A DNA stretch of 47,404 nt. Origin: Eubacteriales bacterium. GTDB taxonomy: Bacteria; Bacillota; Clostridia; Oscillospirales; CAG-272. The notes under the pieces were generated by a model. The model ran no database searches. It was not told the origin of the DNA and saw only the letters and a list, made by a program, of their open reading frames with translations. The DNA lies in contig JAZQVZ010000053.1 of assembly GCA_045632105.1 (NCBI GenBank), forward strand, positions 1-47,404, written 5' to 3'. The position numbers and the translations under genes were made by a program. This document shows, one piece after another, positions 21,680-47,404 of the stretch (the stretch's first letter is position 1; each line of letters starts with the position of its first letter).

Positions 21680-21750
21680 TAGATAATAATTATAACTTAG
21701 AAGAAAAGAGATACATAATAACCCGATAATCGGGATGCTCGTTAGAGAAA

Positions 21751-21780
21751 AAAGAGGAAATGCTTAGGCATTTCCTCTTT
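21751..21780 (-). terminator. Terminator of the hexuronate operon
   Basis: 13-bp stem: AAAGAGGAAATGC pairs with GCATTTCCTCTTT. A T-run follows on the minus strand (complement of 21745-21750). Confidence 0.8.
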
Positions 21781-21790
21781 TAATTTGATT

Positions 21791-32179: not shown

Positions 32180-32971
32180 TTACTTTTTGGATGAAGAGGC
32201 CAACTTTGCAAACAGGCTGGCGTTAGTAGTTTCCGCAAAGCTATACTGTGCCATATATTCGCCATGATATAGATTCGCAAGCTCTACTTTTCCGTTTAAA
32301 TAATCAAAATAATCACAATCCAGCTCGGTGACCGAAACTCCAAGCATTCCGCGAGTCTGCACGATGACCGATTCACAGCCCAAGGATTTGAGCGTACTGA
32401 TCAGATCCAATCGCAACTGGTTGTAATACTTTTGGTGAGAATCATCCTCAAACAAAACGGACATAAGCTCATTGCCACTACACATAGAGCCTCTTCTGTC
32501 GATCAAATAGGCAAGCATTTCCTTGGTTTTCTGGTATTTGAATCTTACGTGCGAGTCGCCATATAGGATCTGGAAATTTCCAAATGCAATAGCTCTTAAC
32601 TTTTTGGGCACACGGATAGGTCGGCGGAGATTATCAAGCTCACGCTTAACTCCTTCTACGGTGATAGGCTTGATCAAATATCCACTTGCGTGAAGATCAA
32701 ACGCCGCATCTCGATATGAGCCAAACCCTGTGGCAAAAATAATATTGATATCGGGATTTATTTCCTTTAACTGTTTTGCGGCAGTAACGCCATCCACACC
32801 CCTCATTTCAATATCCAAAAAGGCAATATCGCAGGGCTCTTTTTCCATATGTGCTATGGCTTCTGACGCATAACGGAATCCATACACCTGGGCATTGGGA
32901 GCGGCGCTTTGGATAGAGGAAAGCAGGCCTTGCAAGGCAATCTTTTCGTCGTCTACTGCAATTATTTTCAT
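32180..32971 (-). CDS. Response regulator: REC domain plus SARP/OmpR-like winged-helix with the start of a BTAD-like segment
   Basis: REC motifs IIAVDDE, FLDIEM and GYLIKP. The C-terminus FGNFQILYGDSHVRFKYQKTKEMLAYLIDRRGSMCSGNELMSVLFEDD...CDYFDYL...LYHGEYMAQYSFAE resembles SARP wHTH/BTAD and not LytTR. Confidence 0.8.
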   Translation of the reverse strand: MKIIAVDDEKIALQGLLSSIQSAAPNAQVYGFRYASEAIAHMEKEPCDIAFLDIEMRGVDGVTAAKQLKEINPDINIIFATGFGSYRDAAFDLHASGYLIKPITVEGVKRELDNLRRPIRVPKKLRAIAFGNFQILYGDSHVRFKYQKTKEMLAYLIDRRGSMCSGNELMSVLFEDDSHQKYYNQLRLDLISTLKSLGCESVIVQTRGMLGVSVTELDCDYFDYLNGKVELANLYHGEYMAQYSFAETTNASLFAKLASSSKK

Positions 32972-34815: not shown

Positions 34816-34872
34816 ACACAAAGCCGTCCTTAAAATTTATTTTGCCCGAGAATTTGCTTGTTTTTGAAAATT

Positions 34873-34987: not shown

Positions 34988-34996
34988 TGGTATAAT
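34988..34996 (+). promoter_or_regulatory. Extended -10 (TGgTATAAT) without a recognisable -35, upstream of the giant gene
   Basis: TG at 34988-34989 and TATAAT at 34991-34996. The hexamer 17 nt upstream is AACTTT, a poor -35. Confidence 0.5.
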
Positions 34997-35093
34997 AAAT
35001 CGATAAAGTTATCGTGTAGGGTTGTCGCTTCTTTGAAACATATTCAAGTGGCTATATTGACCCTTTGAAAATTCTATGAGGAGGATTTTGGTG

Positions 35094-38000
35094 ATGAAAA
35101 AAAGAATTGCTTTGACAGCTTTTTTGGCATTGTGTGTAGCTATCGCGCTATCCATTGTGCCGATGAGCGTTTTTGCAGCAGACACGACAGGCACCGAATT
35201 GGTGGGCACCAAGTTGACCGCTTCACATGCGGGTCAAACCCTGTCGGGTGATTATTACGTGGAGCCGGGCACTACGCTTACGTTGCGTGGCGGCACCGGA
35301 GTCAGCGGCTTGAAGGTAGATACAAACAAGACGTTGACGATCTACATTCCTGCTGACTCGATATTGTATCTGTATGGTGGGGCCGCAAGTGGTACAACCG
35401 GTGCAGGTGCAGGTGTTGAGGTCAATTTGGGATCCACGCTGAAAATTATCGGTAAAGGTAAGATATACGCCTACGGCGGTAAGGCTGCTAACGGTAGCAA
35501 CGGTGCAAACGGCGACGCTGCTACGTGGGGAGATGATTCAAATACATATATCCCAGACAGTGGATACGGCGGAGCCGGTGGCGGCGGCGCAGGTGCGGGT
35601 ATCGGTACCAAGGGTGGTGCCGGAGGTAGCGCCACGAGCTGGAGACTCGGTTTCTACGGTGGTCGTTCCACATGGACTGACAGTTTCAAGAATAAAAACA
35701 TCAGCGGTCCTGACGGATACAACGGTAATAACGGTAGTAGTGCAAGCGAGTGTGGCAAGATCTACATTTCTGCAGATATAGCATACACCGCAACAGGTGG
35801 TGCGGCAGGTACGTCCGGAGGTAGCGGCGGCAGCAGAGGTGCTTCCGACTACGAGAGTGACGATCACTGGATGCGCGGCTTGGCAGGTGGCTCCGGTGGC
35901 GGTGGCGGTGGCGCAGGTAAAGCTGGCGCTAACGTTGGTACCGGCGGCGGTGGTGGCGGCGGCGGTGGCTCCGGAGGAGCTTCCGGATACGCATGGTCCT
36001 ACCAGTTCCTTGGTGGCGGCGGTGGCGGCGGCGGCGCTGGCGCTGTAGGCGGCTCAGGCGGAGCATGGGGCTCTGATAGTTCGATATCCGGCTGTAAGGA
36101 ATATTGGCTTTTCGGTGGTGTGGAGAGAGTTTCCACATCGGGCTCTTCGGGTGGCACTTCCACCGGTGGATCCGGCGGAAAGGGCGCAAAGGTAAAGATC
36201 ACAGACTGGAGCGAGAGCTATTGGGAATACCCATACGGCGGTTACGGTGGCAAAGGTGGCGATGCTGGTAGCAACTGCAGCACAACAACTGTCCAGAAGC
36301 TTTATGACGTTACCATTGATGTTGACGGCGAGGTGATCGGTACATATCTTGCAAGCGCAACAGAATTCCTTCCCGAGAGCCTTGAGATCCCCACAAGATC
36401 CGGATACGCTTTTGATGGCTTCTACGCAGGCGACGTCGAATACTATGACGCAACCGGCGCAAGAACATCTGCGCAAATTACCGCAGATACAAACATCTCG
36501 GCTAAATTCACAGCTAATTCTTATAATTTCAACATAAACTCCTCGGACGGTAGTACAGGCGGCGGCGCAGGTGCCGGCGGCACGGTTAGTTATGATGACG
36601 GAATCACATTGACCACTCCGTCCCGTGAAGGTTATTTGTTCCGTGGGTGGAAGGTCAGCGTAACTAACGGTTCAATCAGCCCAGATGCATATTACACGTA
36701 TGCTTCTGCAGACTCAATGGCGAGAATGGCTCGTGCGGCTAATTTGGAAAGTGAGGATTTCATCCACATTAACGGGTCGGCGATTACCGGAGGATTTGAA
36801 AAGATTGGTCAGAGCGTAACGCTTTACAATCTTTCTTCTGATCCTGGTGCAGATATCAACATCGAGGAAATTTGGGTAGAGGATAGCTTTACCGTTACAT
36901 TTAAGAATTTTGATGGTGAAATCCTCGGCAAGCAGAGTGGACAGTATCTTGACACCTTGAGAAGCCCCATGCTTCCCAATACTCAAAATGAATACTTCAC
37001 ATACACGTTCAAATATTGGAAGTGTAATATTGACAATGAATACTATACATCCGAGGAACTACCGTTCCTTGGCGCATTCCTTGAATACGAGAGCACGTTT
37101 GGCGACGCCGTTTATGACGGAGTTACCTTTACTGCAGTATATAAGATATCCGAATACAAGAAGGGTATAAAGCTTGACGGATCTCTTGAAAATAACAACC
37201 TCACCAGTGACGGTAAATTGGTATTAAACAGTGGTGATACTAATGTTGACGTTATTACCAACTTTAAGATCACTAATAATGACGGCGTGGCAACAATGCT
37301 TTTGATTCCTGAGTACGACGCAAGCGCATTCTCGATCAAGGCAATATCTGTAAATGGTGAGCTTGTATACGGCACAGGCGCTACATCCAAGACGGTTTTG
37401 AACGGATTTGACGTAATCGTTACGGGTGACGAAACAGCAGGCGACACACTCAAGATCCTTTTGGATAATCTCACCCCCGACGCATCAACAAGTGATGAAA
37501 TATTCATCCAGATCGTATACGTTATGAATACGGCAATCGGTGGAGAGTATAACTTTGGATTTGTAACCAAGCATGCAGAAACCACCGACGAGATCACACA
37601 TGGTGACCGAAGCGAGGCTTACGGAACATACGATCCCGACATAAACAGTCAGACTGATGCATACAAGTTCAACGAGCTCAAGATTACTGTAGATAGCACT
37701 GCAATCAAGGTTGTTATCCGTGCTACCGGTGAGATAACTATTGCTCCTGATCAGACGTTTGTTTACAACGGTCAGATGATGAGCGCAGCAGACGTCAGCG
37801 AGATGATCGCAAACGTATTGCAGTTCACATACAACGGCTTTGCAAAGAAGGAAAACAACACCTTGATGATCAAGTGGTACGACGAGCAGGGCAGAGAGCT
37901 TACAAGCGCACCTAAGAATGTCGGTACATATCAGATAGGTATTTCCGCAGCTGAAACTACGTATTATACTCCCGTTGCAGAGGTAAGAGCAACATTTACA

Positions 38001-41000
38001 ATCACTCCTTACAAAATTTACGTAAGCGCAGGCGACCAGAGCTTTGAATACAACGGCGGCAACGTCGTAATAGGCGGCACTACTGCAGGCGATGCTCTCT
38101 ATACAAAGGACGCTGAAGGTAATTTGGTACCCGTAGATGCGTTTGTAAATTCCGAGATAATCATCAGTGGCGTAACTCTTAACGGCACCTATGTTAATGC
38201 GGGCACTTATACAGACGTTATTCAGGGAGTTCTCCAGTGCATCGGTAACGGTTCGCTTGATAACTACACCGTTGTATACGAAAACGGCAACTTGACGATC
38301 ACCAAGGCAGAAAACGACTGGACAATTCTTCCCGGCGACAAGACTGTTGAGTATTCGGGCAATATCGTTGGTATTGACAACGTTAGCGCTAATTTTGGTG
38401 AAGTCAAGATCGAATATCTTGTAGGCTACGAAAGCACAGCGAATGGCGAAATAGTTCCGATCTGGAGCGAAACACCTCCTACAAACGCTGGTACATATCC
38501 TGTAAAAGTAACTGTTACAGGTAATGACAACTATTCCGATCTTTTGTGTGAAGTGAATCTCATAATCACCAAGAAGGTAATTTATGGTGATGGATTTACC
38601 TTTGGATCTATCGATAAGATCTACAATGGTCAGGCACAGGTTTGGACCACGTTGGAGTATGGTTCTGACGGTCAGATAGAAACCGATGAGGAGATATGGA
38701 TAATCGCATCCGGAAGTAACTCGGAATTTTTGCAGTATATCAGATTTGCAGGATTGATTTATCCTCAGGATTGCATCAATGCAGGCACTTACACCTTGCA
38801 GGCACTCCTTAATATCTCTAATCCCAACTACACATTCATCTTGGATGATGAAGAAGTAGACACCTGGACATGTGACGTGGAGGTTGAAATCCAGAAGCGC
38901 AAGGTTATCGTAACCACAGATGATCAGGAAGCAATTTACAGCGGATATGAGCCTACGGTAGGCCAGGGTCAGGGTTATGTAACGATCACACTTGAGGACG
39001 GCACAACACCCGACTATCTCGCATTAAACTTCTTTGGCGGATACGCATACACATTCGCAGGTAGCGAATTTGATGCAAACGCTACGTATTACGTATATTA
39101 TAAGAGCGAGGACGGCGGGTATTATCAGGCGGTTACTCTCTCGGCAGAGGAGTTTGAAAACAATAAGGCCCTTGAAAACCCCGTTCAGTATTACGTGATT
39201 GCACATGTTGAGCCTTCCGAGATCCTCACATTGATCAAGGCATCCGGTGTAAATGCGGGTGAATATGAATTGTCTGCGATTTTGGAAACTATCAACGGCA
39301 ACTATGAGATCGTTGAGATCAATACTGCTGTATTTACGATCAACAAACAGCTTGTTCCCGTTCCTTCGCTTGGAATACTGATCTACAACGGTCAGACACA
39401 GATCCCTGCTGTTCCCGAGGGATATGAGGGTGTTTATGAGTTTGTTGGCGGAGGCAAGAACGTTGGCGTATACACTCTCACCGCAGTTCTTCTTGATAAG
39501 GATAACTACGCGTGGGAGAACGTTACAAGCATTAACGTAGCATCTCTTCCTACAAACCGCAACTTTACGGTAGAGATCGAGGGTCGCACGATCATCCTGG
39601 GGTACGCGGATATTGCGGATTATACAACAATAAACTTTGTGCTTTCCGCAGGTATGTATGCTGGTACAACTATTGACTCGACGTCCGATGATATAGTTCT
39701 TCCTTGGTACATCGACCAGAAGACTATTGTCCTGGTATATCCCGATGCAACAGAGAACTATGTGTACGGAGCATTTGTAAACGACATTATAGATGCCTTG
39801 GGCGATCCTGTTTGGAAAGACGGTGTAGCTCCCTTTGAGGGAGATGAATGGACCGAAATCCATTGGCTTAACATCGATTACGGCATTTATGCATATCCCG
39901 AGGTAGGCACACACAGCTTGGTGATTTCCCAGGGAATGTTTAACACCAACTACAATGTTCTTATAGAGGGTGGCCGCGTTGAGATTACAGAGAAGATCCT
40001 TACAGAGGATGAGGTCAAGAGTGAGATCTCCACAGTAATCAAGCACTACACCGGACAGACACTTGTACTTGACGCCAATGGTGATTTCGTTATCACTTTG
40101 TTTGATTACAATCACGACAGCCCTGCCAATGCACAGCACGTATTCTACGTAACTGATGTTGATACGCTGAATCATATCAACGCTAACGGTTGGATGAACG
40201 ATGATGTTTTCGATTACTACATTGACGAAGAAACCGGAAAGATCTACGTTCGCGTTACCGTAGCATTGACAGATGAGGTAAAGGCAAACTATAAGCTTGA
40301 AGGTGACGTTGAGTCCTTTACGTTTGACGTTGAGGCATATATTGCAAAGGCAGAGAACGAGTGGACACATGATCCTGAGGTTGATGCTAGCGATGTTCAG
40401 AATATCAAAACATATGCAAGTGCTTTGTTTGGAAATATTAACGATGTTGAGTTCTTCTTGGACCAGAATTGTACGATTTCTGTAAGCAAAGAGGACTTGC
40501 ATGCAGGTACGACCTATTACGCTAAGTTTACCATTACGGATAACAACAACTATTATGGGCTTGAAGCTATAATCGACTTCTCCGTTGATTATATTATAAT
40601 CAACATGCCCAACGTCCGCCTTGATAGTGCAACGGGCGATAAAGCAGGCGAGGGAAATGTAGTATCTATCTTCTATGACGGTCAGATACACACGTTCTAT
40701 GTTCCCACCAGCGACGCATACACCGTAACGTTCAGATCTGAGGGTGAGTGGAAGAACGTAGGAATTTACACCGTAACGATCGCTCTTACAGATAGCAACG
40801 CTATGTGGAGAGATATCTACACACAGCGTGAACTTACGTATAGACTGCAGATCAACAAGAAGACTCTTGTTATTACGGCTGATAATGAGGTGATCACCTT
40901 TGGTGATGCTGCTCCTCAGTACACAGTTACCGCAAACGGACTTGTAGACGGTGAAACCATCGTGGGTCTTCTCGGTAACGAGCTTGCAAGCTATGTAAGC

Positions 41001-44000
41001 TGCATGTACACTCAGGGAGATAACGTAGGCACGTACCCGATAGAGCTTCTCAACGAGATCAAGGATGCTCTTACAAATTACCAGATCACGCTTAGAAACG
41101 GTACGTTGACTGTTAACAGGCTTGTATTTGGTTATGATGACATTACATCCACTGACGGATCAACGTTTGAGGATCTGATCAACAACGGTCCCTCCTTCAT
41201 CTACGATAGCGAGGGAAAGGAAGTGGCTGTTGAAACTCTTCCCGACGAGCTTGAGATTACAATTGTTTATAAGGATGCAGAGGGTAATATTCTTACAGAT
41301 AAGCCCACTGATGCAGGCGAATATACTGTTGAGGTCACAGTAAATGTCAAGGATGGCTACAACGCAAACAATTATTATATTCCTGCAGGCTCCGAGATTC
41401 AGTTGACTATCGAAAAGGCACAGATGACCATTACCGTCAATAATCAGGAGCATGATTATGACGGAAACGATCACAGCGGAAAGATACCCTTCGGAACCTA
41501 CACAATTGTTGTGAATAACGGACAGAACTTGGTCGGCGGTGTTACACTTACCATAAGCGGTGAGTACATCAATGCCGGAACCTATGCTGACAAGATCTCC
41601 GCTACGCACAGCTATAACACAAACAACTACGAAGTTACAATTATTAAGGGTGATCTTACCGTCAACAAGGTTGATAACTCTTGGGATTTCGATCTTGAGG
41701 TGGGAGATAACCTTGAATACGGTCAGGATTCCGTTGTGGACGGTTCTTACTTCTTCTCCAACCCCAGATTTGGAGACAGCGACGTAACCTACACGTTCTA
41801 TGAATTGATCAATGGCAGCTGGGTTCGCTTCAGTGGTGTTCCTACCAACGCAGGTGAATACTACGTTATAGCAAGTGTTCCTGGTACCGACAACTATAAT
41901 GAGCTTGTTTCCGGACGCATTGAGTTCAGGATCAGACAGGCAATCGTTACACTTGACGGTATTGTCTTTGAGGATTCTGCTGTAATCTACAACGGCGAGG
42001 CTCATTCTATTGTGGTAACCCCCAATGAGTATTCCGAGTTCTTTAACATCAGCTATGTTGGCAACGGACGCATAAACGCAGGTACATATAGCGTAAGCGC
42101 AACGTTTGTACTTGTTGATCAGCGCAACTATGTGCTTGACGGTGCCGACACACTGTCTGCAGAGCTTGTGATAGATACCGTTAAGGTTACTATCACAGCA
42201 AACAACGATTCGTCTATGTACGGTGAAGCTATCAACACACTCACCTACGGAATTGCTTTTGAAGGTGCAGAGGGATATGACAGCTTCTATGCAAACAACA
42301 TCGGTCGCATAGTGCTCACAACCGATGCAACCAGCTGGTCGAACGTTGGTGATTACAATATTCTGGTTAACTACACCTCTAATAATAACTACGAGGTTAC
42401 AGTGAACAACGGAACTTATGAGATCACTAAGTTCATAGATAATGATATCTTTGATATTACATCGAGCGACGTGAACTACCTGATGGATCTTATCTATTCG
42501 GCAAACGCACTTCGCGGAGAAACCACGATAGAGTTTACATTTGCTACTTCTGCGGAAGGTCCTTTCACCGGCGAGCTTCCCAAGAACGTAGGCACTTACT
42601 ACATCAAGGCAACTGTTCCCGAAACGGATAACTATGAAGGCGCAGAAGCAATTGGATCCTTTGATATTACTAAGGCTACACTTAGTGCTATTACGGGAAT
42701 CACATACAATGCGGATACAGCAACCTGGAATGCAGTAGTTACCACTACGGACGGCAAGCAGGTAGATTGCGACGTTACATACCTGGTAGGCGGAAACAAT
42801 CTTACGGCTCCTATCTTTACTGCAACCAATACGGGCAGCTTCAGCGTAATAGCAGTAGCTGCTGACAGTGCAAACTACAATGACAGTGAAGCGGTTACTC
42901 TTGTAACTGTTTATAGCGTAAGCTTTGCTGATAAGGTTGAAAACCACGACAAGCAGCAGAACCTTGCAGACATGACTGATGCAGCTTTTGCAACCCAGTA
43001 CCGTTTTGCAGGCCAGGCGGCTACCAGACCCGATATGATTCCTACTATTGTAGGATACACATTCCGTGCATGGCAGCTTGACAATGCTGATTACAGCTTT
43101 GCCGACGGTGTATATGACAACGTTACACTTTACGCGGATTGGACCGTTAACAGATACACACTCAACTTCTACAACGAGGTAGTGAGTGGCAGCGGCATTG
43201 TTAACGGAGTATTTGTGGAGGGAACACTTTCTGCAGAATTCCTGACATCTTACACCGTAACATACGGATCACCCTTCAATCTCACCGGTGTTCATATCCC
43301 GACCAAGGATGCTGATGCGGTTTATACATACGTATTTGCATACTGGGCAGATGCTCTTCGCGGAACCGAGTTTGACAGCACGATCTACGTATATGACAAC
43401 ATGGACTTCTATGCTGTTTATGCAAGTGATGCAAGAGAATTCACCATCACATATATGGTTTCCATTGACGGCGGTGCATATATGCAGCATGGGGTTGTAA
43501 CCCTGCCTTACGGAGCTGATCTTGTAAGCCTCGGTAATGTAACTTGGTTTGTTGGTGACACATGGTATACCGATGCCGACAGACTTGTTTCTGCACCCGA
43601 CTTTGTTCCTGCAGGAGACATGACTCTCTACGGAGCATATGTGTTCGATATCGGTGCAGGTGACGTTAACGCAGACGGAACAATTGACACTGACGACATA
43701 GTTAACTACCGTCGCTTTGTTGTTGGCGGTTACAATATCGTAATGGTTGAAGCGGGAACCGAATGGTCTCTCGTTAACTCCGATGATTTTGATCCTTCCA
43801 AGACCTACTATCTTGTTCGCGTTTCGGATGCAAACCGAGATGACAGCGGAGATATCAGAGATATTACTACTATCCGTATGGCATTGACAGGTGGATACGG
43901 TTACATCATTGAGACAAACGGCTCCGTAACAGGAGAGTCTGTCAATACTGTTATGAATACCATTGCCGGTGTTAAGGATCCCGAGGAGCTCCAGAGCGCA

Positions 44001-45350
44001 ATCAACTATCCCGCAGGCGATGTTCGCATCAAGCTTACCGAGGATATCACTCTTACAAGCGCACTGGTTCTCGACAGTGGAAGCAATGTAACGATCAACC
44101 TTAACGGACATACGCTGACACTCCCGGATACCAATAATTACGGAGTAGCAGTAAAGAACGGCACTCTTATAATCGAGGGAGAGGGCAATGTGGTCGTTCC
44201 AGGATATTACGGATTTGCAACATCCTCTGTTGCCGACACAGGTCACATCGTGATCAATGGCGGAACATTTGTTGGTGCAAATGCTTACTATCTGTTTGGA
44301 TGCTATAACGGAAGCATTACGATCAATGACGGTGACTTTACAGCACTCTACTGTATTCTTAACAACTATGCGAGTGACGATTACGGTAACATTATGAGCG
44401 GTGTTGCAACTGTTAACGGCGGAAGCTTTGAGGTTACAGATACCGATACTTACTACCGTCCGTTCATATTCCTTGGTGACGTAGAGGTTGCAGGCGCTGC
44501 TGATTATAGAGTTCGCACTGCAGAAAACCTTGCAATCGCATTTAAAAACGGCGGTAGAGTAATACTGACAGGTAACATAGTTATTGATGAAGATGCACTT
44601 GCTGTATACATGCCTTATTACTTGGGCATGGATAGCATGGTTATTCCCGCCGGAAAGAGCGTTGAGCTTGATCTTAACGGATATACCATCAGCCACGAGG
44701 CAGAGTGCACCGCAAGCTACGCAATGATCTATAACAAGGGAAGCCTTACAATTAACGATAGCGTTGGAACAGGTAAGATTTCCTTTAACGATACCGGCGT
44801 GGGCGATCCTAATAGAGATTGGGCATCGTACACCATTCATAACACAGGAACTCTCGTAGTAAACGGGGGTACGATCGAGCATTTGGGTCAGCAGACCTAT
44901 AACGCAAACAATGCGATCTTCAGCTATTCCGGAAGCACTACCATCAACGGTGGAAAGATTTTGGCTCAATACAGCAGATCCGTTCGCCTGTGGAAGGGTT
45001 CTTTAACCGTTAACGGCGGTGAATTCGACGGTCAGATCTGGATTCACCCCACAGCTGAGTGTGCGTTGACTATTACAGACGGTTCCTTTATGCCTGCTAC
45101 ATACGGTGGTGACTTCTCCTCCGTGTTTGTAGAAAACGACCGATATGAGGTTGCTCTCTCCATAACAGGCGGCACATTCCAGACTAAGATCGGATGCAGC
45201 AATGCAGATCAGCTGGCAGGTGCGGTAAGCGGCGGCGTATTTACCGTATCGGCAAAGGAAAATACCAATGCTACGCTGATCAACGACGGCTATGAGTTTG
45301 TTTCAAACGAGGACGGAACTTATACGCTGGTTGAAAGAGAATTGCAGTAA
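35094..45350 (+). CDS. Giant (3,418 aa) secreted multi-domain surface protein. It has a Gly-rich N-terminal region, Listeria-Bacteroides repeats, a cohesin-like module, about 15 MBG-like repeats, a dockerin-like module and a C-terminal beta-helix-like domain.
   Basis: Single uninterrupted ORF. ATG at 35094 lies 9 nt after GAGGAGG; the track start at 35076 overlaps the RBS. Signal peptide MKKRIALTAFLALCVAIALSIVPMSVFA|AD. I saw no LPXTG, SLH or C-terminal TM segment. Confidence 0.9.
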   Translation: MKKRIALTAFLALCVAIALSIVPMSVFAADTTGTELVGTKLTASHAGQTLSGDYYVEPGTTLTLRGGTGVSGLKVDTNKTLTIYIPADSILYLYGGAASGTTGAGAGVEVNLGSTLKIIGKGKIYAYGGKAANGSNGANGDAATWGDDSNTYIPDSGYGGAGGGGAGAGIGTKGGAGGSATSWRLGFYGGRSTWTDSFKNKNISGPDGYNGNNGSSASECGKIYISADIAYTATGGAAGTSGGSGGSRGASDYESDDHWMRGLAGGSGGGGGGAGKAGANVGTGGGGGGGGGSGGASGYAWSYQFLGGGGGGGGAGAVGGSGGAWGSDSSISGCKEYWLFGGVERVSTSGSSGGTSTGGSGGKGAKVKITDWSESYWEYPYGGYGGKGGDAGSNCSTTTVQKLYDVTIDVDGEVIGTYLASATEFLPESLEIPTRSGYAFDGFYAGDVEYYDATGARTSAQITADTNISAKFTANSYNFNINSSDGSTGGGAGAGGTVSYDDGITLTTPSREGYLFRGWKVSVTNGSISPDAYYTYASADSMARMARAANLESEDFIHINGSAITGGFEKIGQSVTLYNLSSDPGADINIEEIWVEDSFTVTFKNFDGEILGKQSGQYLDTLRSPMLPNTQNEYFTYTFKYWKCNIDNEYYTSEELPFLGAFLEYESTFGDAVYDGVTFTAVYKISEYKKGIKLDGSLENNNLTSDGKLVLNSGDTNVDVITNFKITNNDGVATMLLIPEYDASAFSIKAISVNGELVYGTGATSKTVLNGFDVIVTGDETAGDTLKILLDNLTPDASTSDEIFIQIVYVMNTAIGGEYNFGFVTKHAETTDEITHGDRSEAYGTYDPDINSQTDAYKFNELKITVDSTAIKVVIRATGEITIAPDQTFVYNGQMMSAADVSEMIANVLQFTYNGFAKKENNTLMIKWYDEQGRELTSAPKNVGTYQIGISAAETTYYTPVAEVRATFTITPYKIYVSAGDQSFEYNGGNVVIGGTTAGDALYTKDAEGNLVPVDAFVNSEIIISGVTLNGTYVNAGTYTDVIQGVLQCIGNGSLDNYTVVYENGNLTITKAENDWTILPGDKTVEYSGNIVGIDNVSANFGEVKIEYLVGYESTANGEIVPIWSETPPTNAGTYPVKVTVTGNDNYSDLLCEVNLIITKKVIYGDGFTFGSIDKIYNGQAQVWTTLEYGSDGQIETDEEIWIIASGSNSEFLQYIRFAGLIYPQDCINAGTYTLQALLNISNPNYTFILDDEEVDTWTCDVEVEIQKRKVIVTTDDQEAIYSGYEPTVGQGQGYVTITLEDGTTPDYLALNFFGGYAYTFAGSEFDANATYYVYYKSEDGGYYQAVTLSAEEFENNKALENPVQYYVIAHVEPSEILTLIKASGVNAGEYELSAILETINGNYEIVEINTAVFTINKQLVPVPSLGILIYNGQTQIPAVPEGYEGVYEFVGGGKNVGVYTLTAVLLDKDNYAWENVTSINVASLPTNRNFTVEIEGRTIILGYADIADYTTINFVLSAGMYAGTTIDSTSDDIVLPWYIDQKTIVLVYPDATENYVYGAFVNDIIDALGDPVWKDGVAPFEGDEWTEIHWLNIDYGIYAYPEVGTHSLVISQGMFNTNYNVLIEGGRVEITEKILTEDEVKSEISTVIKHYTGQTLVLDANGDFVITLFDYNHDSPANAQHVFYVTDVDTLNHINANGWMNDDVFDYYIDEETGKIYVRVTVALTDEVKANYKLEGDVESFTFDVEAYIAKAENEWTHDPEVDASDVQNIKTYASALFGNINDVEFFLDQNCTISVSKEDLHAGTTYYAKFTITDNNNYYGLEAIIDFSVDYIIINMPNVRLDSATGDKAGEGNVVSIFYDGQIHTFYVPTSDAYTVTFRSEGEWKNVGIYTVTIALTDSNAMWRDIYTQRELTYRLQINKKTLVITADNEVITFGDAAPQYTVTANGLVDGETIVGLLGNELASYVSCMYTQGDNVGTYPIELLNEIKDALTNYQITLRNGTLTVNRLVFGYDDITSTDGSTFEDLINNGPSFIYDSEGKEVAVETLPDELEITIVYKDAEGNILTDKPTDAGEYTVEVTVNVKDGYNANNYYIPAGSEIQLTIEKAQMTITVNNQEHDYDGNDHSGKIPFGTYTIVVNNGQNLVGGVTLTISGEYINAGTYADKISATHSYNTNNYEVTIIKGDLTVNKVDNSWDFDLEVGDNLEYGQDSVVDGSYFFSNPRFGDSDVTYTFYELINGSWVRFSGVPTNAGEYYVIASVPGTDNYNELVSGRIEFRIRQAIVTLDGIVFEDSAVIYNGEAHSIVVTPNEYSEFFNISYVGNGRINAGTYSVSATFVLVDQRNYVLDGADTLSAELVIDTVKVTITANNDSSMYGEAINTLTYGIAFEGAEGYDSFYANNIGRIVLTTDATSWSNVGDYNILVNYTSNNNYEVTVNNGTYEITKFIDNDIFDITSSDVNYLMDLIYSANALRGETTIEFTFATSAEGPFTGELPKNVGTYYIKATVPETDNYEGAEAIGSFDITKATLSAITGITYNADTATWNAVVTTTDGKQVDCDVTYLVGGNNLTAPIFTATNTGSFSVIAVAADSANYNDSEAVTLVTVYSVSFADKVENHDKQQNLADMTDAAFATQYRFAGQAATRPDMIPTIVGYTFRAWQLDNADYSFADGVYDNVTLYADWTVNRYTLNFYNEVVSGSGIVNGVFVEGTLSAEFLTSYTVTYGSPFNLTGVHIPTKDADAVYTYVFAYWADALRGTEFDSTIYVYDNMDFYAVYASDAREFTITYMVSIDGGAYMQHGVVTLPYGADLVSLGNVTWFVGDTWYTDADRLVSAPDFVPAGDMTLYGAYVFDIGAGDVNADGTIDTDDIVNYRRFVVGGYNIVMVEAGTEWSLVNSDDFDPSKTYYLVRVSDANRDDSGDIRDITTIRMALTGGYGYIIETNGSVTGESVNTVMNTIAGVKDPEELQSAINYPAGDVRIKLTEDITLTSALVLDSGSNVTINLNGHTLTLPDTNNYGVAVKNGTLIIEGEGNVVVPGYYGFATSSVADTGHIVINGGTFVGANAYYLFGCYNGSITINDGDFTALYCILNNYASDDYGNIMSGVATVNGGSFEVTDTDTYYRPFIFLGDVEVAGAADYRVRTAENLAIAFKNGGRVILTGNIVIDEDALAVYMPYYLGMDSMVIPAGKSVELDLNGYTISHEAECTASYAMIYNKGSLTINDSVGTGKISFNDTGVGDPNRDWASYTIHNTGTLVVNGGTIEHLGQQTYNANNAIFSYSGSTTINGGKILAQYSRSVRLWKGSLTVNGGEFDGQIWIHPTAECALTITDGSFMPATYGGDFSSVFVENDRYEVALSITGGTFQTKIGCSNADQLAGAVSGGVFTVSAKENTNATLINDGYEFVSNEDGTYTLVERELQ
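35886..36062 (+). repeat. Imperfect GGY/GGC trinucleotide tracts encoding poly-Gly runs (G6, G9, G8)
   Basis: ggtggcggtggcggtggc..., ggcggcggtggtggcggcggcggtggc..., ggtggcggcggtggcggcggcggc... This is the most GC-rich, lowest-complexity DNA in the window. Confidence 0.8.
36300..37160 (+). other. Listeria-Bacteroides (InlB B-repeat/Flg_new-type) repeat region, about 4 units
   Basis: Units of the type YDVTIDVDG...PTRSGYAFDGFY...ISAKFTANSY, ...PSREGYLFRGWKV, and FTVTFKNFDG...YTFKYWKC...FTAVYK. Confidence 0.7.
37165..37575 (+). other. Cohesin-like module inside the giant protein
   Basis: VDVITNFKITNNDGVATMLLIPEYDASAFSIKAISVNG...LKILLDNL...IFIQIVYVMNTAIGGEYNFGF follows the pattern of the three downstream cohesin-like modules (N-x-G-x-x-x-[ML]-L-L-x-[LP]-[DE]-Y-D-x-[SN]). 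Confidence 0.45.
37700..42908 (+). repeat. Array of about 15 divergent MBG-like Ig-fold repeats
   Basis: A recurring protein pattern every 90-130 aa: Y[ND]G(Q/E)... then (N/K)(A/V)GTY... then NY... then (G)xLTIxK. Examples: FEYNGGN...NAGTYTD...NYTVVYENGNLTITK; HDYDGND...NAGTYAD...NYEVTIIKGDLTVNK. The repeats are divergent at the DNA level. Confidence 0.65.
42909..43658 (+). other. Second Listeria-Bacteroides repeat region, about 3 units
   Basis: YSVSFADK...GYTFRAWQLDN...VTLYADWTVNRYTLNFYNE...YTYVFAYWAD...FYAVYASDAREFTITYMV...WFVGDTWYTDAD...MTLYGAYVF. Confidence 0.7.
43659..43895 (+). other. Dockerin-like module (two EF-hand-like Ca-binding segments)
   Basis: GDVNADGTIDTDDIVNYRRFVVGG, then about 30 aa, then SDANRDDSGDIRDITTIRMALTGG. 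Compare the dockerin consensus GDVNGDGxVNxxDxxLLxxYL repeated twice. Confidence 0.6.
43950..45347 (+). other. C-terminal parallel beta-helix-like domain (two tandem halves)
   Basis: Periodic motifs: VTINLNGHTLTL...VKNGTLIIEG / VELDLNGYTISH...YNKGSLTIND. The turns INGGTF, VNGGSF, VNGGTI, INGGKI, VNGGEF, ITDGSF, ITGGTF and VSGGVF recur. Confidence 0.5.
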
Positions 45351-45401
45351 TTACTAACTTTAAGTTACAAAACATTATTTAAGAAAGGAGATGCGAAAGC
45401 T

Positions 45402-46103
45402 ATGAAAAAATTAATATCGGTTTTATTAATACTTGGCACGATGCTGATAATTGGCTTCGCATCTCCGGTTGAGATCCTTGCGGCAGAAAAAGGGAACACT
45501 GTCCTCATTATGAAGGGCAGGGTGAACGAGGAAACTCAAGAAATTGAGATCGACGTGACCGTCTCGGAAAATACGGGCGTTTGCAGTATGCTGCTTTCGT
45601 TGGATTACGATACGTCCGTATTTACCCTGACAGATTTGGAATACGGAGATGCGTTATCATCGCTCTCTCCGATCCACACCAATACCGAAACCGACCAAGG
45701 ATTCGGTATATATCCGTTTAAGATCACCTATTTAGGTGAGGCAAACGACACAACAATCGGCCATATGATGACCTTACGCTTCCGCGTTAAGGATAATGCG
45801 CCGGACGGAAGCTACGCGATCACATTGAAGCACGACCGCGATCAAGGAGCTGCTTACCTTGAAAACGGCAAAATTTTGACCAAGAACCTATTGGTTGACA
45901 GTGCCACGATCACGCTTTCGAAAAACAAAATTACCGCGATTGATACATCTGTAAACAATAACGAACAGCCACAGCCTGATCTCAATTCGAATGATTTGTG
46001 GATCCCTATAGTATTAGGATGTGTTGTTCTGTCAGGCGGTTGTTTTGTTCTGATTCCGCTATTGATCAAGCGCAAAAAAATTAAGAAATGGAAGAAAATA
46101 TGA
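45402..46103 (+). CDS. Membrane-anchored single-cohesin protein (signal peptide, cohesin-like domain, linker, C-terminal TM anchor)
   Basis: Signal peptide MKKLISVLLILGTMLIIGFASPVEILA. Cohesin-like IEIDVTVSENTGVCSMLLSLDYDTSVFTL...MTLRFRVKDNAPDGSYAITL. Linker NNNEQPQPDLNSND. TM LWIPIVLGCVVLSGGCFVLIPLL followed by IKRKKIKKWKKI. It starts 51 nt after the giant gene with no terminator in between. RBS AAAGGAG. Confidence 0.75.
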   Translation: MKKLISVLLILGTMLIIGFASPVEILAAEKGNTVLIMKGRVNEETQEIEIDVTVSENTGVCSMLLSLDYDTSVFTLTDLEYGDALSSLSPIHTNTETDQGFGIYPFKITYLGEANDTTIGHMMTLRFRVKDNAPDGSYAITLKHDRDQGAAYLENGKILTKNLLVDSATITLSKNKITAIDTSVNNNEQPQPDLNSNDLWIPIVLGCVVLSGGCFVLIPLLIKRKKIKKWKKI

Positions 46104-47404
46104 CAAGCACTAAACGAAACGGACTTTTCCGTGTGCTTATGCTTGCATGGGCTATTCTATTTGTTCTGCTTTTATTGCCAATTGGAATAATGCAGGTAAG
46201 CGCAGCGGAAAATAATACTGCCGATCTACCGGTGGTTAGAGTTGAAAACAAGACCGTTCATCGCGGTCAAACATTTGAATTGAAAATATATTTGGATCAA
46301 AACCCGGGATTGATTTCTCTAATGCTTGATCTTGAATATGACAAATCGGTAATGGAGCTTGTGGGAATATCACATGGACAAGCATTGGGCTCCCACACAT
46401 TCACTACCACTAATACGGAAATAGAGAATGGATTTTCGATTACACCGTTCTATATGTTATGGGACGGCAGAACGCAGGATAATTCCACAGGTGTTCTTGC
46501 GACTCTTACCTTTAAAAGTAAGGTCGATGCTAAAATTGGAGATTATTCCGTAAACGTCAGCTACGACAAGAAGAATACTAATATCGATTACGGCAAGCCG
46601 TGCGATGTGAAAATTAAAAACGGATGCGTCACATTGATCAAAGGCGCATATAGCGTAAAGTATTTGAATTATGACGGTTCTTTGCTTTACGAAAAGGATT
46701 ACAGTGAAAATGAAGTTCCAAGCTACGTAGGTCCTGCTCCTACACGTCCGACCGACGAATATTATTCTTATAAATTTGAAGGTTGGCAGGGAGTGGTTTC
46801 CGATACTTCGAACATTATCTGCTATGAGGCAAAATACGAGCTGATCCCGCAGATCTATCAGGTGTTCTTCTTTGTTGACGGAGAATACTTTAATGCGTTC
46901 GAGTGTTCTTACGGAGAGGCGGTTGACCTGTCTTTGATACCCTCCAAGAAAAACTTTGTGTTTGACGGTTGGTACACAGATGAGGCATTAACGCAGAAGG
47001 CTACGTTTGCAAAAATGCCTGCTCAGGATCTCAGACTATACGGAACGATGAAATTCAACGTACGCGAAAATCCTGTTCCCGAGATTACGCTTTCCGTCGA
47101 TAGAATGGAAGCGGACCATGCTTACGTTGCGGTAGATGTAACGAAGAACCCCTCGATTTCCGGTTTGGTGCTTACCTTGGACTATGACCGAAACGCATTG
47201 ACGTTTGAAGGCTTTGAACAGGGTAAGGCATTCGACTCGCTGCAGTTTGATTATACAAATACTGATGAAGGATATTCTGCAGAACCGTTTAGATTCTATT
47301 GGGAACACACCGTTAATACGATGGATACGGGCAGGCTGCTGATACTGAAATTCAAGATCAACCATGAGGCGGCAGTCGGAGTCTACAACGTTACAATGAC
47401 GTAT
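46100..47404 (+). CDS. Secreted multi-cohesin protein, 5' part (continues beyond the window; not in the supplied ORF track)
   Basis: ATG at 46100 overlaps the upstream stop (ATGA). My manual translation gives 435 codons with no stop to the window edge. Signal peptide ...LLLLPIGIMQVSA|AE. Cohesin-like FELKIYLDQNPGLISLMLDLEYDKSVMEL...ATLTFKSKV. Two Listeria-Bacteroides repeats (YKFEGWQG, FVFDGWYTDE). Second cohesin-like AYVAVDVTKNPSISGLVLTLDYDRNALTF...LLILKFKINHEA. Confidence 0.8.
   Translation, partial: MTSTKRNGLFRVLMLAWAILFVLLLLPIGIMQVSAAENNTADLPVVRVENKTVHRGQTFELKIYLDQNPGLISLMLDLEYDKSVMELVGISHGQALGSHTFTTTNTEIENGFSITPFYMLWDGRTQDNSTGVLATLTFKSKVDAKIGDYSVNVSYDKKNTNIDYGKPCDVKIKNGCVTLIKGAYSVKYLNYDGSLLYEKDYSENEVPSYVGPAPTRPTDEYYSYKFEGWQGVVSDTSNIICYEAKYELIPQIYQVFFFVDGEYFNAFECSYGEAVDLSLIPSKKNFVFDGWYTDEALTQKATFAKMPAQDLRLYGTMKFNVRENPVPEITLSVDRMEADHAYVAVDVTKNPSISGLVLTLDYDRNALTFEGFEQGKAFDSLQFDYTNTDEGYSAEPFRFYWEHTVNTMDTGRLLILKFKINHEAAVGVYNVTMTY

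What the first reader, a model, noticed from the sequence alone, without database searches (positions are those of the whole stretch)
35094..47404. Operon-encoded, non-cellulosomal cohesin-dockerin assembly system built around a 3.4-kaa secreted adhesin-like protein
The 10.3-kb gene encodes a Sec-exported protein with no LPXTG, SLH, cell-wall-binding repeat or C-terminal TM segment. Its only recognisable attachment device is a dockerin-like module (43659-43895). Fifty-one nt downstream, with no terminator, lies a 233-aa protein made of a signal peptide, one cohesin-like domain, a P/Q linker and a C-terminal TM anchor with a KRKKIKKWKK stop-transfer tail. That is the exact logic of an anchoring scaffoldin, but membrane-embedded. 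An ATGA-coupled third gene encodes a secreted protein with at least two more cohesin-like modules and Listeria-Bacteroides repeats. No glycoside hydrolase or CBM is involved, so this is not a cellulosome. It appears to be a dedicated display or assembly machine for a giant MBG-repeat protein, likely under the adjacent two-component system. Isolated non-cellulosomal cohesins and dockerins are known. A compact operon that pairs a giant adhesin with its own anchor and scaffold cohesins is not, to my knowledge, a characterised system.
Basis: partly seen in the sequence, partly recalled or inferred. Interest (0 to 1): 0.8.

Follow-up and report, generated by a model that had tools for sequence, protein, structure and literature searches.

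The report
Membrane-socketed cohesin–dockerin giant surface protein
An uncultured gut Clostridia bacterium encodes a 3,418-residue secreted repeat protein carrying a dockerin, next to two membrane-anchored cohesin proteins and a two-component sensor, and this conserved gene set most likely plugs the giant protein into the cell membrane without any cellulose-degrading enzymes.

Summary
Gene 1 (35094-45350) encodes a Sec-exported 3,418-aa protein with no LPXTG motif, SLH domain or C-terminal TM helix.

- **Dockerin.** Its module at 43647-43913 fails Pfam's cut-off. It aligns over both Ca-binding repeats to Pfam-positive dockerins (hhalign 98.2%, E 6e-14), with one 22-residue insertion between the repeats.
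- **Cohesins.** Gene 2 is signal peptide, cohesin, C-terminal TM helix and basic tail. Gene 3 has two cohesins plus Flg_new.

New findings:
- Gene 3 orthologs also end in a TM anchor, so it is a second membrane socket, not a secreted scaffold.
- A fourth, translationally coupled membrane gene follows.
- All six components, including the two-component system, recur in deeply diverged metagenomic loci (24-42% identity) in permuted order.
- Some loci carry two giant genes.
- The dockerin is a conservation island in the giant protein.

Binding itself is untested: AF2 models failed and no multimer tool was available. TM-anchored single cohesins with unknown partners were already reported in 2024 and 2026.

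This is therefore a new variant of a known kind. It supplies those orphan cohesins with a concrete, testable partner.

The parts
32180..32971 (-). Response regulator (263 aa). It has a receiver domain plus an output domain that Pfam does not recognise.
   Evidence: Response_reg scores 64.5 bits. Homologs lie beside the cohesin operon in L009/L010 (about 69% identity) and L015-17 (41%).
32968..34821 (-). Histidine kinase (617 aa). It has one TM helix, an extracellular domain of about 165 aa, six TM helices, then His_kinase and HATPase_c domains.
   Evidence: PF06580 scores 77.8 bits and PF02518 scores 38.9 bits. Linkage is conserved in other loci.
34988..34996 (+). Candidate extended -10 promoter element (TGGTATAAT) in the divergent intergenic region.
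   Evidence: Read directly from the sequence. This is an inference only; the consensus scan did not list it as a full promoter.
35094..45350 (+). Giant secreted protein gene (3,418 aa counted from the ATG at 35094; the ORF opens at 35076).
   Evidence: ORF. RBS AGGAGG at 35080-35085. About 30 orthologs at 41-79% identity.
35094..35177 (+). Signal peptide (MKKRIALTAFLALCVAIALSIVPMSVFA).
   Evidence: It is the only hydrophobic segment in the protein. Sequence.
35211..36293 (+). N-terminal glycine-rich domain of unknown fold. It is the most conserved part of the protein.
   Evidence: Gly content is 29-37% per 100 aa. Conservation is 0.8-0.89. It has no Pfam or PDB sequence match.
37737..42773 (+). 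Stalk of MBG-type and related beta-rich repeats.
   Evidence: MBG_2 scores 72.7 bits in 3 stretches, MBG_3 scores 43.7 bits in 4 stretches, and DUF5643 is weak. The boundaries are approximate.
42900..43646 (+). Flg_new (Listeria-Bacteroides) type repeats immediately before the dockerin.
   Evidence: Flg_new scores 16.7 bits in 2 stretches, below the cut-off. TIGR02543 scores 19.4 bits. The boundaries are approximate.
43647..43913 (+). Dockerin module with two F-hand Ca-binding repeats (loops at 43662-43697 and 43827-43862). A 22-residue insertion separates the repeats, and each repeat is followed by GGY(N/G).
   Evidence: Motifs. PDB profile hits. hhalign gives 98.2% probability, E 6.2e-14. 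It is a conservation island at 0.75-0.80. There is one copy in every giant homolog.
43914..45347 (+). C-terminal domain of 'NGGTF'-type repeats, probably a beta-helix. It is the most variable part of the protein.
   Evidence: Conservation is 0.31-0.54. Only about 28% identity across the stretch that includes this domain in a 59%-identical ortholog. PF13229 Beta_helix is precomputed for orthologs P0274 and P0275. This copy has no Pfam hit.
45402..46103 (+). Gene 2, a 233-aa membrane-anchored single-cohesin protein. Signal peptide 45402-45485, cohesin about 45489-45917, linker, TM helix 45999-46067, and tail KRKKIKKWKKI 46068-46100.
   Evidence: Cohesin scores 33.7 bits, above the cut-off. TM helix. 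There are 96 homologs at 50-78% identity with the same architecture. 52 of 53 distant short relatives also end in a TM helix plus basic tail.
46100..47404 (+). Gene 3, cut by the window end. Signal peptide 46100-46207, cohesin 1 at 46235-46555, Flg_new at 46856-47041, and cohesin 2 from about 47087. Full-length orthologs are 646-656 aa in close loci (up to 714 in the L015 type) and end in a TM anchor.
   Evidence: Cohesin scores 54.4 bits in 2 stretches and Flg_new scores 41.3 bits.

Best explanation
This is a self-contained, non-cellulosomal cohesin-dockerin tethering system.

**Proposed mechanism.**
- The giant protein is exported by Sec.
- Its sub-terminal dockerin folds around two Ca2+ ions and docks non-covalently onto one of three cohesins.
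- Those cohesins are carried by two single-pass membrane proteins: gene 2 with one cohesin close to the membrane, and gene 3 with two cohesins on a longer arm.
- The roughly 2,800 residues N-terminal of the dockerin (Gly-rich domain, MBG stalk and Flg_new repeats) then project away from the cell, so the giant protein acts as an adhesin-like fibre.
- The variable C-terminal beta-helix domain stays near the socket.
- The neighbouring histidine kinase and response regulator control expression.
- The fourth, coupled gene encodes a membrane protein with a cytoplasmic YegP-like domain. It is an accessory of unknown role.

**Shown.** Domain identities, membrane topology signals, gene coupling, and conservation of the six-gene set.

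**Inferred.** The dockerin binds these particular cohesins, the complex sits on the cell surface, the protein is an adhesin, and the two-component system regulates it.
For: **Domain identity.**
- The cohesins pass Pfam's curated cut-off in genes 2 and 3.
- The dockerin is established by hhalign over both repeats (98.2%, E 6.2e-14) and by PDB profile hits that are dockerins only.

**Matching types.**
- The nearest multi-cohesin relatives of the gene-2 cohesin carry Pfam-positive dockerins.
- Three of the five share the GGY(N/G) signature seen in the giant's module and two read GGW. This cohesin clade therefore travels with this kind of dockerin.

**No alternative anchor.** The giant protein has no LPXTG, SLH or C-terminal TM segment.

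**Membrane anchoring of the cohesins.**
- Both cohesin proteins have a signal peptide plus a C-terminal TM helix and basic tail.
- 52 of 53 distant short relatives share this architecture, and none has LPXTG.

**Co-transcription signals.** The gap before gene 2 is 51 nt with no terminator. ATGA-type overlaps join genes 2-3 and, in the close orthologous loci, genes 3-4.

**Conserved linkage across deep divergence.**
- The locus L015-17 has the order HK, RR, cohesin-TM, two-cohesin protein, gene 4, giant. All six are homologous to the window's set at 24-42% identity, in a different order.
- L021 has the order giant, Coh219, Coh656, gene 4, second giant.
- L019 has two dockerin-bearing giants.

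**Selective constraint.**
- The dockerin is a conservation island (0.75-0.80, against flanks of 0.56 and 0.50).
- It lies within the best-matching segment between distant giants.
Against: - No interaction was tested or modelled. AF2 on the dockerin region gave pLDDT 35 and 49.7, and the resulting fold search was meaningless.
- Pfam Dockerin_1 is below its cut-off.
- The second repeat alone is not significant against PDB (E 0.38). In one clade a 9-residue insertion interrupts its Ca loop.
- The stoichiometry is uneven, with three cohesins for one dockerin. The cohesins may serve other cargo encoded elsewhere.
- A cohesin held about 28 residues from the membrane would lie beneath a Gram-positive wall, so surface exposure depends on the giant protein threading outward.
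- The most variable domain sits next to the dockerin, and the most conserved domain is at the far N-terminus. That is not the usual pattern for an adhesin tip.
Confidence: 0.6

Rival explanations
1. The two membrane cohesin proteins are general anchoring scaffoldins of a genome-wide, non-cellulolytic cohesin-dockerin network. The giant protein is just one of several dockerin-bearing clients that happens to be encoded nearby. The system would not be dedicated to it.
For: - There are three cohesins and one dockerin in the operon.
- Related loci carry two giant genes. In L019 both have the dockerin module, and one giant also has its own N-terminal cohesin.
- Relatives of this cohesin clade occur in scaffoldins that sit beside dockerin-bearing peptidases and phosphatases.
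- Lachnoclostridium sp. MSJ-17 is reported to have TM-anchored single cohesins and 39 dockerin proteins (PMC11557425).
Against: - In every locus examined the cohesin-TM pair sits next to a giant MBG gene, with the dockerin module found wherever the region is readable, even when the gene order is permuted.
- No other dockerin motif occurs in the 47-kb window or in the flanks of the related loci of this system.
- A search with the dockerin segment found only two fragments of orthologous giants, but that search has limited sensitivity.
Confidence: 0.2
2. The dockerin-like module is an internal Ca2+-binding structural element that does not bind cohesins. The cohesin-fold proteins bind something else, such as a glycan, a wall polymer or another protein. 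The genes would be neighbours because all contribute to one envelope structure.
For: - The module is internal, not terminal.
- It carries a 22-residue insertion and fails Pfam's cut-off.
- In one clade the second Ca loop is interrupted.
- AF2 could not fold the module confidently.
- From established knowledge (Peer et al. 2009, cited in PMC6487960), many non-cellulosomal cohesin- and dockerin-like modules have no demonstrated partner.
Against: - Both repeats align in register with bona fide dockerins.
- The post-helix GGY signature matches dockerins attached to the same cohesin clade.
- The module is conserved more strongly than its flanks.
- It co-occurs strictly with cohesin genes.
Confidence: 0.12
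3. The system mediates cell-cell or cell-partner recognition in trans. The dockerin on a giant fibre of one cell would engage membrane cohesins, or the N-terminal cohesin of another giant protein, on a neighbouring cell and so drive aggregation.
For: - Some giants carry both an N-terminal cohesin and a dockerin, which would allow chaining.
- Cohesin-dockerin adhesins are proposed to mediate partner recognition in ANME/SRB consortia (PMC10553843).
Against: - The window's giant protein has no cohesin of its own and no independent anchor. In trans it would not be attached to its producer.
- Membrane-proximal cohesins would be poorly accessible to another cell.
Confidence: 0.05

Closest known systems
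Ruminococcus flavefaciens CttA X-dockerin bound to the ScaE cohesin (PDB 4IU3), and the R. champanellensis XMod-DocB:CohE complex (PMC7456326)
   Same: A non-enzymatic surface protein or fibre is held on a Gram-positive cell through a single cohesin-dockerin pair. The anchoring cohesin protein is monovalent. From my own knowledge, cttA and scaE lie in one gene cluster.
   Different: ScaE/CohE is attached covalently to peptidoglycan by sortase (PMC7456326, PMC12484212). Here both cohesin proteins have a C-terminal TM helix and no LPXTG. Those systems are part of cellulosomes with CBMs and GHs; this one has none. Here the dockerin is internal, has a 22-residue inter-repeat insertion, and follows Flg_new repeats rather than an X-module.
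Single-cohesin proteins with a C-terminal transmembrane helix ('non-SLH anchoring scaffoldins') in H. luporum, C. cibarium and Lachnoclostridium sp. MSJ-17 (PMC11557425), and in Ruminococcus spp. (bioRxiv 10.64898/2026.02.05.704116)
   Same: The architecture is the same as gene 2: signal peptide, one cohesin, and a C-terminal TM helix presumed to sit in the bilayer.
   Different: The papers state that the binding partners are unclear, and they discuss those proteins in the context of enzyme-bearing cellulosome- or amylosome-like systems. Here the partner candidate is encoded in the same operon. It is a giant non-enzymatic repeat protein, and the set includes a second TM-anchored two-cohesin protein, a YegP-like membrane protein and a two-component system, all conserved together. 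Homology between these published proteins and gene 2 was not tested.
Cellulosome anchoring scaffoldins (SLH-type OlpB/SdbA, sortase-type ScaE)
   Same: The logic is the same: a cell-bound cohesin receives the dockerin of a large secreted protein.
   Different: A cellulosome needs dockerin-bearing CAZymes and usually a CBM-bearing primary scaffoldin. None is present in the operon. The anchor is a TM helix rather than SLH or LPXTG.
Non-cellulosomal cohesin/dockerin adhesin genes in ANME archaea and syntrophic sulfate reducers (PMC10553843)
   Same: Cohesin- and dockerin-domain proteins without CAZymes are interpreted as adhesins.
   Different: The lineages and architectures differ, and as far as the text read shows no operon of this composition was described there. 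Homology was not tested.

Membership tests
Cohesin domain (Pfam PF00963) | Sequence match at or above the curated gathering score | tested here: met
   Gene 2 scores 33.7 bits and gene 3 scores 54.4 bits (two stretches), against a cut-off of 24.1. The full-length gene 3 ortholog scores 54.6 bits.
Cohesin domain (Pfam PF00963) | Nine-stranded beta-sandwich (jelly-roll) fold | not tested
Sequence matches to solved cohesins are weak (best E 0.028-0.06).
Cohesin domain (Pfam PF00963) | Binds a dockerin | not testable with these tools
Dockerin (Pfam PF00404 Dockerin_1) | Sequence match at or above the curated gathering score | tested here: not met
   The isolated segment scores 11.6 bits, E 0.35, against a cut-off of 22.9. 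The whole protein gives no hit.
Dockerin (Pfam PF00404 Dockerin_1) | Two tandem F-hand repeats with Ca ligands at loop positions 1, 3, 5, 9 and 12, each followed by a helix | tested here: met
   The loops are DVNADGTIDTDD and DANRDDSGDIRD. AF2 predicts a helix after loop 1 at modest confidence. The second loop is interrupted by 9 residues in one distant clade.
Dockerin (Pfam PF00404 Dockerin_1) | Homology to accepted dockerins over both repeats | tested here: met
   hhalign of 29 giant-protein modules against 12 dockerins from proteins in the same search gives 98.2%, E 6.2e-14, over 66 columns. Five of those proteins were scanned and score 33-41 bits, above Pfam's cut-off. The PDB profile search returns dockerins as the top 21 hits, best E 1.6e-5.
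Dockerin (Pfam PF00404 Dockerin_1) | Compact module of about 60-70 residues with a short inter-repeat linker | tested here: not met
   There is a 22-residue insertion between the repeats relative to canonical dockerins. AF2 suggests a beta-hairpin there, with pLDDT of 62-78.
Cellulosome | Dockerin-bearing glycoside hydrolases, and a CBM on a scaffoldin | tested here: not met
   There is no GH or CBM domain in genes 1-3 or in the gene 4 orthologs. The GH2 gene at 29799-32078 lies outside the operon, next to an MFS sugar transporter gene and near a uronate-catabolism cluster, and has no dockerin.
Sortase- or SLH-anchored surface proteins | C-terminal LPXTG sorting signal, or SLH repeats | tested here: not met
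   No LPXTG-like motif occurs in the C-terminal regions of genes 1-3, and none in 53 short relatives. There is no SLH hit.
Two-component regulation of the operon | Conserved physical linkage of the HK/RR pair with the structural genes | tested here: met
   Homologous pairs are adjacent in three arrangements: the window (divergent), L009/L010 (convergent, about 69-70% identity) and L015-17 (co-directional, 41-42%). Actual regulation cannot be tested here.

The most novel reading that the evidence does not exclude
The six-gene cassette may be a widespread, undescribed Gram-positive surface organelle that both holds and senses a giant fibre. In this reading the dockerin plugs into membrane-embedded cohesins. 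Their conserved cytoplasmic W-x-[KR]-[ILV] tails, together with the co-conserved YegP-like membrane protein and the linked histidine kinase, would relay attachment or mechanical load into the cell. That would be outside-in signalling through a cohesin-dockerin joint. In loci with two giants, one carrying its own cohesin, the fibres would chain end to end.
Probability: 0.12. Interest if true: 0.85.

Novelty: new variant of a known kind. Interest (0 to 1): 0.6.

Why it matters
**Why it would matter.** Cohesin-dockerin pairs are best known as the glue of cellulosomes. Outside them, most cohesin- and dockerin-like modules are orphans with no known partner.

- Recent genome surveys flagged membrane-anchored single cohesins in gut Firmicutes and explicitly left their partners open.
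- This locus and its relatives offer a specific, operon-encoded partner: a giant non-enzymatic repeat protein.
- They also define a conserved accessory set: a second TM cohesin protein, a YegP-like membrane protein and a two-component system.
- An exhaustive profile search gave 473 clusters at E<1e-10. They include 53 short proteins of 195-250 aa among the best 150, of which 52 share the TM architecture. The anchoring mode may therefore be common in uncultured gut Clostridia that appear to lack sortase-type signals on these proteins.

**What it makes testable.** Three defined cohesins can be assayed against one defined dockerin. The dockerin variant with its 22-residue inter-repeat insertion is of interest for specificity and mechanostability studies.

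Tried and rejected
2. **First AF2 run failed.** A 200-aa dockerin region with a 3-sequence alignment gave pLDDT 35 and was unusable.
3. **Second AF2 run weak.** The 109-aa module with 29 sequences gave pLDDT 49.7. Only helix 1 and an insertion hairpin were moderately confident. Foldseek on that model found nothing with E<=0.001, as expected for a poor model.
4. **Short-query homolog search.** A search with the 124-aa dockerin segment returned only two fragments. The word index seems to miss short queries against very long proteins. Searching with the whole giant protein worked.
5. **Metagenome scan.** A JGI metagenome scan with the dockerin profile found nothing.
6. **Genome scan.**
   - It gave one close MAG, Clostridia bacterium RGIG9409 from yak cecum.
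   - It also gave one unrelated Oscillospiraceae locus (L008). That locus proved to be a dockerin-bearing GH78 rhamnosidase system, not this cassette.
7. **Second repeat alone.** Against PDB it was not significant (E 0.38), although the alignment to a dockerin repeat was in register.
8. **Autoproteolysis idea dropped.** I considered that gene 3's pre-TM domain is an autoproteolytic ZU5/FIIND-like domain, given a weak Pfam hit ending at H-[LF]-S. The motif is absent from the L021 homolog, so I dropped the idea.
9. **Terminal domains unidentified.** Sequence searches of the Gly-rich N-terminal domain and the C-terminal domain found no Pfam match. PDB was searched with the N-terminal domain and with the C-terminal 649 aa, and returned nothing for these domains.
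10. **Internal repeat count failed.** Iterating an HMM from one MBG unit did not find the other units.
11. **Exact look-up failed.** The window's gene 2 was not found, so the remainder of gene 3 had to be read from orthologs.

Full report
**1. What is in the sequence**

The region holds three co-directional genes on the + strand.

*Gene 1 (giant protein).*
- The ORF opens at 35076. The ATG at 35094 lies 9 nt downstream of AGGAGG and is the likely start. That gives 3,418 aa.
- It begins with a signal peptide. It has no other hydrophobic segment and no LPXTG-like motif near its end.
- Pfam detects MBG_2 (72.7 bits) and MBG_3 (43.7 bits), Flg_new below its cut-off (16.7 bits against 27) and a weak DUF5643. 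It detects no SLH or wall-binding repeats.

*Gene 2.*
- It follows after 51 nt, and no terminator-like hairpin falls in that gap.
- It encodes 233 aa: signal peptide, a cohesin (PF00963, 33.7 bits against a cut-off of 24.1), a short N/Q/P-rich linker, a 23-residue TM helix, and the tail KRKKIKKWKKI.

*Gene 3.*
- It starts in an ATGA overlap at 46100.
- Within the 435 codons available, it has a signal peptide, two cohesin stretches (54.4 bits) and a Flg_new repeat (41.3 bits).

*Neighbours.*
- A histidine kinase (PF06580 and HATPase_c) and a response regulator are transcribed divergently at 32180-34821.
- The rest of the window is ordinary chromosome: ArgRS, YebC, an Opp-type transporter, uxaC/uxuA sugar-acid catabolism and a GH2.

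**2. Is the dockerin real?**

This was the weakest point of the finding, because Pfam Dockerin_1 scores only 11.6 bits, below the 22.9 cut-off. Four lines of evidence settle it.

1. **Motif uniqueness.** The strict Ca-loop motif D-x-[ND]-x-[DN]-x3-[DN]-x2-D occurs exactly twice in all six frames of the 47-kb window. The two copies are 55 residues apart in the same protein.
2. **PDB profile hits.** A 5-sequence profile of the module retrieves dockerins as 19 of 24 PDB hits (best E 2.4e-4). A 29-sequence profile retrieves dockerins as the top 21 hits (best E 1.6e-5). Only repeat 1 drives these scores. Repeat 2 alone is not significant (E 0.38), although it aligns in register with a dockerin repeat.
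3. **Relatives of the gene-2 cohesin.**
   - An exhaustive profile search with the gene-2 family found multi-cohesin proteins as close relatives of the gene-2 cohesin.
   - Many of them end in compact two-repeat dockerins. The five scanned score 33-41 bits, above Pfam's cut-off.
   - Three of those five carry the same post-helix signature ...RRxx(V/I/A)GGY(N/G); the other two read GGW.
4. **Profile-profile comparison.** hhalign of the giant-protein modules against those canonical dockerins gives 98.2% probability, E 6.2e-14. Both repeats align, and the giant's module has a single 22-residue insertion between them.

The module is therefore a genuine dockerin of an unusual, interrupted variant. 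Structure prediction did not help. pLDDT was 35 with 3 sequences and 49.7 with 29 sequences, and the fold search on the model was empty.

**3. Conservation of the gene set**

*Gene 2 family.*
- It has 96 homologs at 50-78% identity, all of about 230 aa with the same architecture, nearly all from metagenomes.
- One distant member is deposited as 'MAG: hypothetical protein [Clostridia bacterium]'.
- The only close genome hit is an uncultured Clostridia MAG from yak cecum.
- A SASP gene nearby in related contigs points to a spore-forming Firmicute.

*Operon in close relatives.* Every contig with enough flanking sequence shows the same order:
1. a giant gene (3,322-3,559 aa where the gene is intact);
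2. a cohesin-TM gene (231-233 aa);
3. a two-cohesin gene (646-655 aa);
4. a fourth gene (291-409 aa).

Genes 2-3 overlap in every locus read. Genes 3-4 overlap in the close loci such as L001 and L004, but are separated by short gaps in L009 and the L015-type loci.

- The full gene 3 product ends in its own TM helix and basic tail. It is a second membrane anchor rather than a secreted scaffold.
- Gene 4 encodes three N-terminal TM helices, weak DUF1508/YegP-like repeats and an acidic, proline-rich linker.

*Distant relatives.*

| Locus | Gene order |
|---|---|
| L015-17 (one copy is NCBI GCA_017650795.1) | HK, RR, cohesin-TM, two-cohesin protein, gene 4-like, giant MBG protein |
| L021 (JGI) | giant(Doc), Coh219(TM), Coh656(TM), gene 4-like, second giant |
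| L019 | two-cohesin protein, gene 4-like, giant 2202 (N-terminal cohesin plus Doc), giant 3674 (Doc) |

- In L015-17, the gene-2 relative P0204 is only 24% identical to gene 2.
- All six products there are homologous to the window's set by BLASTP at 24-42% identity.
- That giant carries the same dockerin variant followed by beta-helix-like repeats.
- In L009/L010 the two-component system sits downstream and convergent, yet is about 69-70% identical to the window's.

Gene-order permutation with retention of all components across this depth is strong evidence of functional coupling.

**4. Anatomy and constraint within the giant protein**

- All 40 giant homologs that match the module HMM carry exactly one dockerin module. 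In the 3.1-3.8-kaa proteins it lies at about aa 2,725-3,100, always followed by a C-terminal domain.
- A 28-ortholog alignment gives these conservation scores (mean fraction of sequences sharing the commonest residue, in 60-aa windows):

| Region | Conservation |
|---|---|
| Gly-rich N-terminal domain | 0.8-0.89 (most conserved) |
| Flank before the dockerin | 0.56 |
| Dockerin | 0.75-0.80 (a distinct island) |
| Flank after the dockerin | 0.50 |
| C-terminal 'NGGTF' repeat domain | 0.31-0.54 (most variable) |

- The C-terminal domain is exchanged or duplicated among orthologs.
- The best BLAST segment between the window's giant and the distant L015 giant spans the dockerin and its immediate flanks.
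- The two dockerin repeats are not symmetric. Loop positions 10/11 read T-D in repeat 1 and I-R in repeat 2, and helix positions 17/18 read R-R and R-M.
- Repeat 2 is almost invariant among the closer orthologs.
- I infer a single binding mode centred on the second helix, but this is an inference only.

**5. Mechanism**

The best-supported reading has these steps.
- The giant protein is exported by Sec.
- Its dockerin binds Ca2+ and docks onto one of the three cohesins.
- Those cohesins are displayed by two tail-anchored membrane proteins. One sits close to the bilayer (gene 2, with a linker of about 28 residues). The other has a longer arm (gene 3: Coh1, Flg_new, Coh2, a further domain, then the TM helix).
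- Because the dockerin lies at about 83-86% of the chain, the roughly 2,800 N-terminal residues would extend outward. From established knowledge of tandem Ig-like or beta-grasp repeats, each a few nm long, I estimate a fibre on the order of 100 nm. The variable C-terminal domain would stay near the socket.

Supporting points:
- The absence of any other anchor in the giant protein fits this reading.
- So does the absence of LPXTG in the cohesin proteins and in all 53 short relatives examined.
- The match between the cohesin clade and the dockerin subtype fits as well.

Untested points: actual binding, surface exposure through the wall, what the fibre binds, and regulation by the kinase. The kinase has an extracellular domain of about 165 aa.

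**6. Rivals**

- **General scaffold (confidence 0.2).** Three cohesins for one dockerin, and loci with two giants, suggest that the sockets take more than one client. This overlaps with the main explanation.
- **Structural Ca module, unrelated cohesin-fold ligands (0.12).** This is disfavoured by the in-register homology, the subtype match and the strict co-occurrence.
- **Trans cell-cell recognition (0.05).** This is conceivable for giants that carry their own cohesin, but the window's giant has no independent anchor.

**7. Comparison with what is known**

- Functionally, the closest system is the ruminococcal CttA/ScaB X-dockerin bound to the ScaE/CohE cohesin. There, however, the cohesin is sortase-linked to peptidoglycan and belongs to a cellulosome (PMC7456326, PMC12484212).
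- Single-cohesin proteins with C-terminal TM helices have already been noted computationally.
  - They are described as possible non-SLH anchoring scaffoldins whose partners 'remain unclear' (PMC11557425).
  - They are also reported in several Ruminococcus species (bioRxiv 10.64898/2026.02.05.704116).
- The membrane anchor by itself is therefore not new.
- I found no paper describing a giant MBG/Flg_new dockerin protein encoded with TM cohesins, the YegP-like membrane protein and a two-component system. The absence of a hit in the held library is not proof of absence.
- It is not a cellulosome, because there are no dockerin-bearing CAZymes and no CBM.

**8. Verdict**

The architecture and dedicated-operon logic are strongly backed by comparative genomics. 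Binding and function are inferred. Gene 3's role and the novelty claim need correction.
- Novelty is 'new variant of a known kind'.
- Interest is about 0.6. A specialist would not be astonished by another non-cellulosomal cohesin-dockerin pair. The cassette does give orphan TM cohesins a concrete partner, defines an interrupted dockerin variant, and appears widespread in uncultured gut Clostridia (473 clusters at E<1e-10).

Noticed in passing
window 46068-46100 (tail of gene 2); homologs P0002-P0096 and P0099-P0244: The cytoplasmic tail of the cohesin-TM protein ends in a conserved W-x-[KR]-[ILV] motif (…KKWKKI). It occurs in 88 of 91 close homologs and 32 of 53 distant short relatives. That is more conservation than a simple stop-transfer signal needs, and it may mark a cytoplasmic interaction.
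   Followed up: partly
beyond the window end; L001:12657-13814, L021:14518-15432, L019:1966-3264, L015:13065-14210: A fourth gene is present in every locus of this system that extends far enough downstream, overlapping gene 3 in the close loci (L001, L004, L013, L021). It encodes three N-terminal TM helices. In most loci weak DUF1508/YegP-like repeats and an acidic/Pro-rich linker follow (the L021 copy shows no YegP match), and sometimes an extra C-terminal domain. Its function is unknown.
   Followed up: partly
window 35211-36293: The glycine-rich N-terminal domain of the giant protein (up to 37% Gly) is its most conserved part. It has no Pfam or PDB sequence match. The same kind of domain appears at the C-terminus of P0278 and in the middle of P0279.
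   Followed up: partly
window 43914-45347: The C-terminal 'NGGTF' repeat domain after the dockerin is the most variable part of the protein. It is replaced, lengthened or duplicated among otherwise close orthologs (for example L004 and P0257). This suggests module swapping or diversifying selection.
   Followed up: partly
L019:3335-21025; L015:14249-20699; L021:705-11873 and 15883-21873: Some related loci encode two giant proteins. The 2,202-2,205-aa giant has an N-terminal cohesin-like domain as well as the dockerin, which would allow giants to chain onto one another like adaptor scaffoldins.
   Followed up: partly
gene 3 orthologs, for example L001:10699-12660 residues about 460-600: The domain between cohesin 2 and the TM helix gives a weak FIIND/ZU5 Pfam match (18.8 bits, below the cut-off) that ends at an H-[LF]-S-x-W motif resembling an autoproteolysis site. 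The motif is missing in the L021 homolog.
   Followed up: partly
window 32180-32650 (-): The response regulator's 150-aa output domain matches no Pfam family. By eye it resembles a winged-helix, SARP-like DNA-binding domain (…FGNFQILYGD…EMLAYL…).
   Followed up: no
window 10547-19284: The Opp-type ABC transporter genes are unusually long: the binding protein is 859 aa, one permease is 544 aa, and one ATPase is 717 aa with its ABC_tran domain split into two stretches by a large insertion.
   Followed up: no
L008:2736-11026 (Oscillospiraceae MAG SIG622): This locus holds a GH78 alpha-L-rhamnosidase with an N-terminal dockerin. Next to it is a 1,288-aa protein with Flg_new, a cohesin-like stretch and a C-terminal dockerin. 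It is a different, enzyme-bearing cohesin-dockerin system picked up by the genome scan.
   Followed up: partly
L022:8162-13630 and 16628-19729; L023/L024:783-12847: Multi-cohesin scaffoldins whose cohesins are the closest relatives of gene 2 sit near dockerin-bearing non-CAZy enzymes (Peptidase_C1-dockerin, Metallophos-dockerin). In L022 the scaffoldin lies directly after an ECF sigma and zf-HC2 anti-sigma pair.
   Followed up: no
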